From positions 22,445,486 through 22,509,485 of the forward strand of contig CM119267.1 in assembly GCA_051294375.1 (NCBI GenBank): a DNA stretch of 64,000 nt, given 5' to 3'. The first letter of the stretch is position 1; every line of letters begins with the position of its first letter. The notes beneath the pieces are model-generated. The model ran no database searches. It saw only the letters and a list, made by a program, of their open reading frames with translations, and was not told the origin of the DNA. This DNA is from Paraspadella gotoi (lineage: Eukaryota; Animalia; Chaetognatha). The position numbers were made by a program, and so were the translations under genes. Shown in pieces: positions 1 to 37,584 of the stretch.

Positions 1-152
1 TTGGAACAGTGCCGGGCCCGTAGGTGTTTGGCGAATTCACCCGGGCTGCGGCAAGGCACGTTGGGCGAACAGGCGAGGCAAGAGGACCAAGGCGGCTGAG
101 TCTCGGGGCGGGGTTTTCGGGCGGCGGCGACGCCCGACGACGACGACGTCAT
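1..152 (-). CDS. VPS54: 5' part of a VPS54-like gene (GARP subunit); runs off the window
   Basis: Hand translation from ATG 152: MTSSSSGVAAARKPRPETQPPWSSCLACSPNVPCRSPGEFAKHLRARHCS. The CxxC...F..HLR..HC motif resembles, from memory, the N-terminal zinc finger of invertebrate Vps54 (HLRxxHCxxEGGSFVC). Only 50 codons are visible. Confidence 0.6.
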   Translation of the reverse strand, partial: MTSSSSGVAAARKPRPETQPPWSSCLACSPNVPCRSPGEFAKHLRARHCS

Positions 153-463
153 CGTCCGAAGAGGCGACGGCGACGGTTCATTCGAACAGAATTATATCTT
201 TCATCGGCTGAGTTAGAGGCGTGGTGTTCCAAGCATCGATTCGAGAGAAATCATAATTTTTAGAAACGGGAGACGTTTTAGGGGTCGGGAACTGTCAACG
301 TTGAAAATTATTAAAGGAACCAGAAACTCGATTGAGAAATAAATTCGAGGATGACAATAAGAAAACAAAAGAGCGCCGATGAACGAAGGCGACGACGAAA
401 AAATTAAACAGTATTCAAGGCGAAAAACCCCGAATAAAAATTGCGGGAAAAACTGTTCCTCTA

Positions 464-34800: not shown

Positions 34801-37584
34801 TCGCGGACAGAGGCGGAGACGGGGCGCGGGTCGCCGCTGCTGTCGCAGCCGCCGCCGCTCCGCCGGTCGACGGACGACGTCGCCGGCGAGGAATGAAGCG
34901 GCGGAGGCGGAGGCGGCGTCGGTCCCTCGTCGCACAGGCACCCGGTCGAGGATTTCACAGTCGCGCAGAGATCACAGATTTCGTGAGGCGAAAATGGCGT
35001 GGGCAAAGGCGGCGCCGTCGAGTGGGCGGTGACGATGGCGGCTTCGACTTTCCCGTCAACGAACTGAAACGGAGGCGCGGGGTGAGAAGTCGCGAGGGAG
35101 ACGAACTGTCCGTCGAATTGGCTGTGAGGTTGTTGCTGGCGTTGTTGCTGTTGCAAGAACAATGGATTTGGGTCGGGACCGCAAGTCGTCGTCAATTGAT
35201 TCTCGTTGTAAGGAAAAAACGGAGGTAGTGATTTAGGAACGTCGTCTTGTTCGCTCGCGTTGCGTGGCGGAGGAAAGTTCGTTTCGAATTCGGCCATGTG
35301 CGTTTCATTGGCGTCGTAATCGTTGCCAAATTGAGGAGGAGGGCAATGAGCCGATCCGCCTTCGTCCATCTGATAGTAATAGTTTTGTTGATTGACAAAT
35401 GATCCCAATTCGATCGGCAAATCCGTGTTGGGAAATCCCCTACGAATCACGTAGGGATAAGATCTGCGTTTGTTCTCTCCCGTCCAAATAAAACTCGGAT
35501 CCTCCAATTGCGAAAAGTGATTCTGATGCAATTTCTCCAGATTGCAGATGAAGCCGGAGAATTTGGACTTAATCTTGCCGTTCTCGTTTTTGGTCGGACG
35601 CGAGGAGGAATCGTCGGGCCGCCCGTCGTCGTCGGGCAGTTCGTCGAGCTGGTAGCAGCTTCCCACCGGGCTGCCGCCTTCGGTGACCTTGTAGGATCCG
35701 TGAGAGACGTCGTCGGCTCCGGCGTCGTCGTCCGGTTCGACTCGGATCTCGTTGTTCATCTCGGCGAAGACGTTGCTGTTCCGCGAGGCGGCGAAAGTCG
35801 GCGCCGCCGACGAAATCTCCACCACCACCACGTCGCTCGTCGGCGCCGCGACGGCTGGCTCTTCTGGCCGCAACTCCGCGGCCTCAATCGCCACCGGCGG
35901 CCGCATCGACGGCGGCGGCACGATGCCCAGAAGCTCCAGCTCGGCGAGGGCGAACTCTTCGTTGGTGAAGGCGGAAGAGGGAAGAGTGTCGCTGCTCTTG
36001 CTGAGAGCGTCGGCGACGTAGGCGCTGCGATCGGCCACGTGATTCGTCGATTCCTTCTTCAAACTGTTGCTCCTTCGATCCGATTGCTTCTTGCCACGCC
36101 TCCCTGTCTCCCGGGTCTTGCCACGCCCTCTGCGCTTAGTACCGTTGTGCGAAGTCATCAAGATTCCAGCGTCTTTTGATATCTTGTCTTCGAATCGCTC
36201 GCCGAGCGGAGGATCGCCGTCCAAAGCCACTGGAGTCGCGACTCCGTTGGTGTCACCATTTTCGACGCCGTTTTCGACGCCATTTTCTACGCCGCCGCCG
36301 TTGACGTTTCCATTTCCGGCGCCGTCATTCTCCAAGGTCAGGATCTCAGCTCGGACGACGGGAAAATCTCCGCTTCTCGATTCGCTTCTAAATCGTCCGG
36401 CGATCGGAGGATGAGAGATTCCCGGTCGAGAACTCGATCTTTCGAAGGCGTTTCGATCGTTGTGATGTCGACGAACGTATTCCATCAATTCCTTCTGCGT
36501 TCGACCCGAATAACGAAACGAGTTTCCGCGGGCGAAGAAAAACTTTTTGTGTTTGGCCGCGACGCGCCTCGTCCGGCCCGAGAGACAACGGAAGAAGGCG
36601 TGGTGCTCGATGCAGTTTTTCCAAAAGGCTTTGCACCTGTCGCGATTTTCGAAGAGAAACTCGACCGTCTCCTTGTGATACCCGCAGTCGTCGCGGTGGA
36701 GCTTGATGAGGAAGCGCTTCCGCTTGAAGGAGAGCTTCCGCAGTTTGGCCCAGCAGAAGGTGATGATCCTGGCTTCGTGTTGGTAGACGAGAATGCCGAG
36801 GTGAGCGATGGCCAGTTTGACGGCGACTCCCTTGGCCTCTTGGACGGGTATGCCTGGCAGATATTCCTTGGTGCGGGCGTCGTGCATTCGCACGCCGTAG
36901 AGGTCGATCCTGCGCGCGATGTCGAGGAGATGAAAGTCGGCGGCGGCCGGCGGTTGGCCGGCGTGATTCCGATGATAGTCCATCACCTTCTTCTCGAACT
37001 CACCCGACTGTTTGGGCGTGAGAGCGAAGGTGGAGAGGTAGCTGTGGTCCTGATAATGTTCCGCGGCGAAGTCGCCGATCTCCGCCTGCACCACGAACGA
37101 GGCGAGAAGGGCGCCGGTGTTATCGTTGCAGGCCAGCCGACCCTCGGCCAGATCCCGCTTGATCTGCAGGGCGAACAGGTAACGCGTGTACTCTTCCTCC
37201 AGCTGAGCCGGGTCAGGCGTGTAGAATTTTACGGAGAAGCGAAAGGGAAGAGGTTCAAAGCCGCCGCCCGGTCGAGGCAACGGCGTCTGTTTGAGAATGG
37301 GCTTGTCCCGATCCAGCCAGCGTTCGAGGCCGCGCTCGTCCAGAAACTCCAGCCCGAAATAGTCGTACTCGAGCAGGTTGAGGTGGCGGACGACTTGGGC
37401 GAAGAGGTCTTCGCCCGACGCCTTGACGGGCACCTGGAAGGTGGTGCTCGTGTCGTCGAGCAGCGCCACGCGACACGTGAGGAATTTCTCGCGCGGACGC
37501 GGCGTCGCTGGCGGCGTTGATTGCGAACGGAGAAGGACTGGGTGATGGAAGGGAGGGCGCGCCGGACGGGGGCGTGGAATGCAT
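31859..37584 (-). CDS. FARP/Cdep/FRMD7-type FERM + FERM-adjacent protein with a long low-complexity tail; start unresolved
   Basis: FERM motifs LEYDYFGLEF, VKFYTPDPAQLEEEYTRYLFALQIKRDL, WAKLRKLSFKRKRFLIKLH, FWKNCIEHHAFFR, GNSFRYSGRTQK. An approx. 4.1-kb exon ends at 33365; intron 33364-32881 (G|GTAAGA...TTCAG) joins in frame to ORF 32704-31859. ATG 37584 is 1 nt out of frame. Confidence 0.85.

What the first reader, a model, noticed from the sequence alone, without database searches (positions are those of the whole stretch)
1..37584. Fourteen consecutive co-oriented genes forming operon-like clusters: candidate polycistronic/SL trans-splicing system
Seen: all 14 genes are on the minus strand (about 1 in 8000 if orientations were independent). 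Stop-to-ATG gaps are ZnF-RPB4 234, RPB4-CIB 152, BTB-eIF3m 204, eIF3m-TRAPPC6 332, TRAPPC6-FKRP 237, DPH3-DCTN4 58 and MRPS5-VPS54 311 nt. The tight clusters hold unrelated housekeeping genes, while the Ig and FERM genes have kb-scale spacing. Known: this matches operons of nematodes, tunicates and flatworms, which are resolved by spliced-leader trans-splicing. Inference: this animal has operons. That would be notable if the lineage, which I cannot identify, is not known to have them.
Basis: partly seen in the sequence, partly recalled or inferred. Interest (0 to 1): 0.85.

Follow-up and report, generated by a model that had tools for sequence, protein, structure and literature searches.

The report
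Housekeeping-gene operon, likely arrow worm
Fourteen genes of this animal all face the same way, and RNA data show one of them spliced directly onto the next and two messages ending exactly where the next begins; this is likely an operon cut up by leader splicing, a system already known in arrow worms, the group this animal likely belongs to.

Summary
The layout is real. There are 14 minus-strand reading frames, and all seven quoted gaps are exact. Pfam supports 13 of 14 names; 'VPS54' is unconfirmed. Spliced RNA contigs (run X1) add three things. (1) A 795-nt GT-AG intron joins FKRP's last exon to an acceptor 27 nt before the DPH3 start, so these genes share a precursor. (2) Contigs stop at that AG and at an AG 448 nt before GRB2, where the GRB2 contig begins with 5 unplaced letters; each is the best-scoring acceptor of its gap. 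(3) A relative's contig holds DCTN4 and GRB2 in the same order. Best reading: a trans-spliced operon of the abutting type, core eIF3m-TRAPPC6-FKRP-DPH3-DCTN4-GRB2 (0.8). The leader itself was not seen. The lineage is inferred as chaetognath (about 0.75); no named close homologue exists. Operons, abutting cistrons and a 14-of-14 same-strand run are already published for chaetognaths. The scan noted similar candidates in other genomes, without RNA. Verdict: likely real, known kind, modest interest.

The parts
31859..37664 (-). FERM-domain gene (FERM_N/M/C + FA); the ATG at 37584 is out of frame with the long frame; probably outside the operon
26299..28555 (-). C2H2 zinc-finger gene, 721 aa, 2 coding exons
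   Evidence: weak Pfam zf-C2H2 hits below cut-off
25447..26064 (-). RPB4, 142 aa
24719..25294 (-). CIB (EF-hand), 191 aa, single exon
22934..23812 (-). BTB-domain gene, 292 aa
22771..22772 (-). Best AG acceptor of the BTB-eIF3m gap, 41 nt before the ATG; by length arithmetic the 4003-nt contig ends 52 nt before that ATG
20858..22729 (-). eIF3m, 393 aa; first gene of the RNA-supported core
19796..20525 (-). TRAPPC6, 179 aa
17126..19558 (-). FKRP, 563 aa in the unspliced-end form; the spliced form ends ...LLIDSP with its stop at 16354-16352
16363..17157 (-). 795-nt GT-AG intron from FKRP's last exon to the acceptor 27 nt before the DPH3 ATG; the unspliced contig stops at this acceptor with 24 unplaced letters
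   Evidence: tables 5 and 8
15964..16335 (-). DPH3, 81 aa
13610..15905 (-). DCTN4, 475 aa; its 3' contig runs to 13368
13370..13371 (-). AG acceptor, best of 29 in the DCTN4-GRB2 gap; the DCTN4 contig ends 2 nt past it and the GRB2 contig begins at the first base after it
11816..12921 (-). GRB2 (SH3-SH2-SH3), 223 aa; last gene of the RNA-supported core
6475..9042 (-). Three-Ig-domain gene, 425 aa; probably a separate unit
464..3676 (-). MRPS5 (uS5m), 499 aa
1..152 (-). First 50 codons of a 14th gene, cut by the window edge; the name VPS54 is unconfirmed
   Evidence: no support

Best explanation
Unrelated housekeeping genes sit head to tail on one strand and FKRP is spliced straight onto DPH3's first exon in RNA, so the core eIF3m-TRAPPC6-FKRP-DPH3-DCTN4-GRB2 is likely one operon, likely resolved by spliced-leader trans-splicing, in an animal that is likely a chaetognath. 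Shown: co-orientation and spacing; RNA continuity from FKRP into DPH3 through a spliceosomal intron; contig ends at two AG acceptors. Inferred: Pol II reads through the cluster; at an unpaired AG ahead of a downstream gene a leader RNA is spliced on; the same cut leaves the upstream message's 3' end at that AG, where it is polyadenylated (abutting type, no discarded spacer); at DPH3 a 5' donor inside FKRP's last exon competes for that AG and gives a cis-spliced FKRP-DPH3(-DCTN4) RNA. ZnF-RPB4-CIB(-BTB) and MRPS5 plus gene 14 are likely further operon segments, by layout only. FERM and Ig are likely separate units.
For: (run X1; contigs with introns removed, so RNA-derived): joint 17158->16362 skips 795 nt with GT..AG ends, with 30 letters on the FKRP side, on a 1421-nt contig that continues through DPH3 and DCTN4. 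DNA carry-over or overlapping UTRs cannot make such a joint. The unspliced contig (850 nt) stops at 16362 with 24 unplaced letters. The DCTN4 3' contig stops at 13368 with 4 unplaced letters. The GRB2 contig starts at 13369 with 5 unplaced letters. An acceptor model trained only on the 37 modelled introns ranks 16362 first of 37 AGs and 13369 first of 29 AGs in their gaps. The listed contigs alone reproduce the depth of all 8 bins checked, so nothing of measurable depth crosses 13369, and the 24 letters are not genomic continuation. Both 3' ends extend past the AG exactly as far as the genome reads A (1 and 2 letters), as a poly(A) tail would (inference; the letters were not shown). A 4003-nt contig spans eIF3m-TRAPPC6-FKRP. 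In organism C (run X3) one 3207-nt contig carries DCTN4 then GRB2, colinear with the spliced model, with a spacer of about 631 nt. 8 of 13 genes have an acceptor scoring 4 or more within 60 nt of the ATG, against 0.29 of spacer windows (P 0.015). Lineage: CIB and DCTN4 fall in long-stem clades made only of unnamed proteins, 62-73% identical, while named animals are at most 58% and 50% identical. Published chaetognath traits match: poly(A) site 3 bases from the next acceptor, leaders ending in AAA, and 14 of 14 named host genes on one strand in a 158-kb BAC (PMC2481426).
Against: No leader was read: table 7 showed 14 of 120 loose ends, none at these acceptors. Contigs drop short tips and can bridge genes through precursor or DNA (the bin over DCTN4 intron 2 has depth about 4), so the bridged gaps eIF3m-TRAPPC6, TRAPPC6-FKRP and DPH3-DCTN4 do not prove a single transcript. 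Evidence comes from one run per organism and one study. DCTN4 and TRAPPC6 lack a good acceptor within 60 nt of the ATG (scores -1.2 and -0.9), and acceptor enrichment is weak against shuffles (75 and 133 of 2000). In flatworms cis-splicing is strongly prevented at operon acceptors (PMC12582326 section 11), unlike the FKRP-DPH3 joint. The X3 matches are short (18-93 nt). The lineage rests on exclusion and resemblance; no named chaetognath sequence was compared.
Confidence: 0.8

Rival explanations
1. Compact genome with one promoter per gene. The contigs join neighbours through read-through or overlapping UTRs, and the FKRP-DPH3 splice is an FKRP isoform whose 3' end overlaps DPH3.
For: Short introns (median 91 nt) show general compaction. 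Contigs across two genes show no single transcript, and some intronic depth exists. No leader was seen.
Against: It does not explain why the GRB2 contig starts on the first base after the best acceptor of a 688-nt gap with non-matching letters in front, why two upstream contigs end at acceptors, or why there is no divergent pair among 13 junctions. The 58-nt DPH3-DCTN4 gap leaves little room for a 3' UTR plus a promoter.
Confidence: 0.12
2. The cluster makes stable polycistronic mRNAs that are translated without being cut. The cis-spliced FKRP-DPH3-DCTN4 message would be read by termination-reinitiation through overlapping stop and start codons.
For: The spliced path had the higher contig depth (231 against 114; contig means, weak). 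In it FKRP's stop lies 16 nt before the DPH3 ATG, through two ATGA overlaps (FKRP stop / 7-codon ORF / DPH3 start), and DPH3-DCTN4 are 58 nt apart with no good acceptor.
Against: The break at 13369 and the unspliced contig ending at 16362 show cutting at acceptors. Dicistronic RNAs with introns already removed are known processing intermediates (PMC1657053 passage). ATGA overlaps arise easily by chance (2 of 11 leaders examined).
Confidence: 0.08

Closest known systems
Chaetognath operons (Spadella cephaloptera RPS14-PCNA operon, PMC2481426; Paraspadella gotoi, PMC12460157)
   Same: Unrelated housekeeping genes; long same-strand runs (14 of 14 named host genes on + in BAC 35A21, the 5 minus rows all transposon-labelled); poly(A) site within 3 bases of the next acceptor; neural and signalling genes tend to be excluded.
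   Different: The leader was not read here. The gene set differs from the published examples I could see. The P. gotoi operon table (xlsx) could not be read, so whether this cluster is listed there is unknown. Inter-gene cis-splicing is not mentioned in the passages I read.
Ciona intestinalis operons (PMC2760879) and C. elegans / C. briggsae SL1-type operons (10.1101/2021.09.24.461604)
   Same: Upstream 3' end directly abuts the downstream trans-splice acceptor, with no intercistronic DNA.
   Different: The window's CIB does not group with the one tunicate in the tree (Styela); no nematode was in either tree. Ciona operons hold at most six genes, mostly two.
C. elegans SL2-type operons
   Same: Polycistronic precursor of unrelated housekeeping genes resolved by trans-splicing.
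   Different: SL2-type operons keep an intervening sequence between poly(A) site and acceptor; at the two junctions resolved here the ends abut. No operon-specific leader was tested.
Flatworm operons (PMC12582326)
   Same: Same-strand genes up to 300 nt apart; acceptors shared between cis- and trans-splicing.
   Different: There cis-splicing is lowest at operon-resolving acceptors; here the FKRP-DPH3 cis joint lies on a main contig path.

Membership tests
SL-resolved eukaryotic operon | Closely spaced, co-oriented, unrelated genes | tested here: met
   14 of 14 on the minus strand; 7 of 13 gaps are 332 nt or less
SL-resolved eukaryotic operon | One precursor covers more than one gene | tested here: met
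   GT-AG joint from FKRP into DPH3's first exon. Met for 1 of the 5 junctions laid; 3 are bridged by contigs only (inconclusive); 1 is broken at an acceptor in X1 and bridged in X3
SL-resolved eukaryotic operon | Unpaired 3' splice acceptor ahead of downstream genes | tested here: inconclusive
   RNA ends sit on the top-ranked AG at 2 junctions; across the window 8 of 13 genes, P 0.015-0.07 by control; the ZnF acceptor probably pairs with a cis donor at 28772
SL-resolved eukaryotic operon | Shared non-genomic leader on downstream mRNAs | tested here: inconclusive
   5 unplaced letters in front of 13369, letters not displayed; contigs only, no raw reads
SL-resolved eukaryotic operon | SL RNA gene elsewhere in the genome | not testable with these tools
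   no genome held; Rfam on 1-40000 gave 1 chance-level hit
SL-resolved eukaryotic operon | No promoter or capped start inside the gaps | not testable with these tools
   no CAGE, chromatin or raw-read data
Abutting-type operon (Ciona, chaetognath, SL1-type) | Upstream RNA's 3' end at the downstream acceptor | tested here: met
   2 of 2 junctions where contigs break: ends at 16362 and 13368, 1 and 2 nt past the AG; poly(A) identity of the loose letters is inferred
C. elegans SL2-type operon | Intervening sequence between poly(A) site and acceptor | tested here: not met
   contig ends abut the acceptors at both resolved junctions; other junctions not resolved
Phylum Chaetognatha | Proteins group with named chaetognath sequences | tested here: inconclusive
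   no named chaetognath protein appeared; the window groups with 9 (CIB) and 5 (DCTN4) unnamed rows apart from all named animals sampled; cluster look-ups gave no taxon for the close relatives; Atlas uninformative

The most novel reading that the evidence does not exclude
A downstream gene's trans-splice acceptor is also used, as a main route, for cis-splicing from the upstream gene. This yields a mature FKRP-DPH3-DCTN4 polycistronic mRNA with a changed FKRP tail, translated through a chain of overlapping stop-start codons: a splice switch between cutting an operon apart and keeping it whole. A second novel reading, at about 0.2, is that the animal is not a chaetognath but belongs to a phylum with no reported operons.
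Probability: 0.12. Interest if true: 0.65.

Novelty: new member of a known kind. Interest (0 to 1): 0.3.

Why it matters
If the animal is a chaetognath, this is one more example of a published system and matters little by itself. Its use is as a test case. A six-gene core with defined acceptors lets one check whether the trans-splicing cut itself makes the upstream 3' end, and how cis- and trans-splicing compete for one AG. It also shows that gap-length rules (250-300 nt) can miss junctions when UTRs are not annotated. If the lineage proved to be one without reported operons, it would add another independent origin of animal operons.

Tried and rejected
No genome held, so no genome-wide strand or distance statistics. 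Run search: no RNA holder listed on record; X1-X3 are guessed RNA, and X1 proved spliced when laid. Only 12800-22250 was laid, so ZnF-RPB4-CIB-BTB, the eIF3m 5' end, Ig, MRPS5 and FERM have no RNA test. Metagenome scan with the CIB alignment: 78 loci, none from the close clade (best full-length 59%), none holding any of the other 13 genes. Cluster look-ups of 20 proteins gave no taxon for the close relatives. The Atlas answered once, for a relative, and named only generic CIB clusters. VPS54 check: Pfam 0 hits, homologue search 0 of 7 candidates, PDB 2 chance hits, representative search 3 hits that are repeat proteins. Rfam: nothing above chance. The intronic repeat is not unusually structured (z -0.69), so a ribozyme or SL RNA reading has no support. 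Search of three readable supplements of PMC12460157 for six gene names: 0 hits, but the gene and operon table is an unreadable xlsx. AATAAA is absent from 6 of 13 gaps and says little. The careful DCTN4 tree did not finish; the quick tree is cited, and it flags a long-branch join with Priapulus that I disregard. An acoel, rotifer, tunicate, nematode or flatworm origin was thought unlikely because no named member of these groups is a close hit (120 of 327 and 120 of 220 hits listed); that such groups have named proteins in the database is recalled, not checked.

Full report
1. Observation. I read the whole window and modelled the genes from coordinates. There are 14 consecutive minus-strand coding regions: FERM, zinc finger, RPB4, CIB, BTB, eIF3m, TRAPPC6, FKRP, DPH3, DCTN4, GRB2, Ig, MRPS5 and a 50-codon start at the window edge. 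Pfam, run on 39 exon frames, matched 13 of the 14 genes. 'VPS54' found no support in five searches. The FERM ATG at 37584 is out of frame with the 1433-codon frame. Beyond 39.9 kb the window is a 5025-nt exact duplication plus error-rich copies and seven N gaps, so it offers no control genes. The 1-in-8192 figure is correct for one run but not corrected for a scan; it is suggestive, not decisive.

2. RNA evidence. The run search listed three coded runs of one study, none on record as RNA; X1 holds 0.76 of the words. I laid all three on 12800-22250 (contigs only). X1 is spliced: of 35 joints 15 were shown, and 14 of these are my modelled introns.

The 15th joint skips 795 nt, GT to AG on the minus strand, from 17158 inside FKRP's last coding exon to 16362, 27 nt before the DPH3 ATG. 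It lies on a 1421-nt contig whose length is exactly 30 nt of FKRP plus the spliced DPH3-DCTN4 path. This is direct evidence that one precursor covers FKRP and the start of DPH3.

The alternative, unspliced contig (850 nt) runs from FKRP through that interval and stops at 16362 with 24 letters that fit nothing. At the DCTN4-GRB2 gap, the DCTN4 3' contig stops at 13368 with 4 unplaced letters and the GRB2 contig starts at 13369 with 5. An acceptor matrix trained on the 37 modelled introns only ranks these two sites first among the 37 and 29 AGs of their gaps. The listed contigs reproduce the reported depth in 8 of 8 bins checked to one decimal, so no hidden contig of measurable depth crosses 13369, and the 24 letters are not the genomic continuation.

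After the two AGs the genome reads one A and two As; the upstream contigs extend exactly one and two bases, as a poly(A) tail added at the AG would (inference; the letters were not displayed). The GRB2 contig does not extend onto the G of the AG, which suggests that whatever precedes it does not end in G (weak; it depends on how the tool trims ends).

Such bridging alone proves little, because contigs clip short leader and tail tips and low-level precursor or DNA is present. In organism C one contig carries DCTN4 and then GRB2, colinear with my spliced model at four DCTN4 anchors, with a spacer of about 631 nt against 688 here; the matches are short. Across the window 8 of 13 genes have an acceptor scoring 4 or more within 60 nt of the ATG (P 0.015 against spacer windows; 75 of 2000 shuffles; weaker at threshold 5).

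3. Mechanism. Shown: co-orientation, FKRP-DPH3 co-transcription, RNA ends at two acceptors. Inferred: a polycistronic precursor; leader trans-splicing at unpaired AGs; the upstream message ending at that same AG; competition by a cis donor at DPH3. Core: eIF3m to GRB2 (confidence 0.8). ZnF-RPB4-CIB-BTB and MRPS5 plus gene 14 rest on layout only. Rivals: separate promoters with read-through (0.12) and uncut polycistronic mRNAs read by reinitiation (0.08). The latter is prompted by two ATGA stop-start overlaps between the spliced FKRP stop and DPH3, which chance can give.

4. Lineage. CIB's 15 best hits (62-70%) and DCTN4 exon 2's 7 best hits (70-73%) are unnamed proteins from JGI/IMG, ENA and Logan; named animals follow at 58% and 50% or less, with molluscs, echinoderms, vertebrates and insects about equal. 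Trees of 40 CIB and 30 DCTN4 rows, hand-picked from those lists, place the window in clades of unnamed rows only (100/97 and 100). So this is an isolated animal lineage with many unannotated relatives. Chaetognaths fit (that they are abundant in plankton samples is recalled). I put this at about 0.75; it is exclusion plus resemblance, not a test. Look-ups for names failed.

5. What is known. PMC12460157 (passages; supplement searches; table xlsx unreadable): in Paraspadella gotoi nearly half of genes are trans-spliced, 18% lie in operons, the longest has nine genes, and no leader is operon-specific. PMC2481426 (passages; section 12; supplement 2 in full): Spadella leaders are 36 nt and end in AAA; three bases separate the RPS14 poly(A) site from the PCNA acceptor; of 24 rows for BAC 35A21, all 14 named host genes with a strand are on +, and the 5 minus rows are transposon-labelled (left out: one recombinase, three unlabelled or transposon-grouped + rows, one row without strand). 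PMC2760879 (passages): Ciona operon genes abut. 10.1101/2021.09.24.461604 (passages): SL1-type operons lack a spacer. PMC12582326 (passages and section 11): cis-splicing is lowest at operon acceptors in flatworms. PMC1657053 (one passage): spliced dicistronic intermediates occur in Brugia. PMC7986045 (passages): lists groups with leaders but no reported operons. It works like the Ciona / chaetognath / SL1-type abutting operon. Membership as an SL-resolved operon is met for layout and co-transcription and open for the leader.

6. Novelty. A new member of a known kind. I found no description of a main-route cis-splice from an upstream gene into an operon acceptor in two searches and the passages above; that search is narrow, and most subscription papers are not covered. 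Earlier notes of this scan describe similar candidates in other genomes without RNA support; none concerns this DNA.

7. Verdict. Observation confirmed; interpretation partly supported and probably right for a six-gene core; leader unseen; lineage probably one where this is already published. Interest 0.3.

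Noticed in passing
window 15274-15528 and 21364-21410: A roughly 255-nt interspersed repeat in DCTN4 intron 1 with summed contig depth of 15,000-20,000 in X1 and many different flanks, and an internally deleted copy in eIF3m intron 6. No Rfam hit, no unusual folding. Likely a SINE/MITE-like or solo-LTR element.
   Followed up: partly
window 16332-16355 and 149-181: Stop-start overlaps (ATGA): spliced FKRP stop / 7-codon ORF / DPH3 start, and a 10-codon ORF whose stop overlaps the start of gene 14.
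   Followed up: partly
window 37480-37664: The apparent FERM ATG at 37584 is out of frame with the FERM domain frame; likely a one-base assembly error or a missing upstream exon.
   Followed up: no
window 39958-64000: A 5025-nt exact direct duplication at 7137-nt spacing, further 85-96% copies in both orientations and seven N gaps: likely a gap-filling artefact.
   Followed up: partly
window 22205, 16221, 1938: 3 of 37 modelled introns have GC donors; two of them are confirmed by joints.
   Followed up: partly
window 20735-20759: AATAAA lies 19 nt before an AG acceptor in the eIF3m-TRAPPC6 gap, so the predicted poly(A) site again falls on an acceptor; not resolved by contigs.
   Followed up: partly
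window 12922-13369: The GRB2 contig implies a 448-nt 5' UTR with five upstream ATGs.
   Followed up: no
window 26640-26840: The zinc-finger protein has a cysteine-rich CxxC-like motif across its intron (label recalled; Pfam gave no hit on the part tested).
   Followed up: partly
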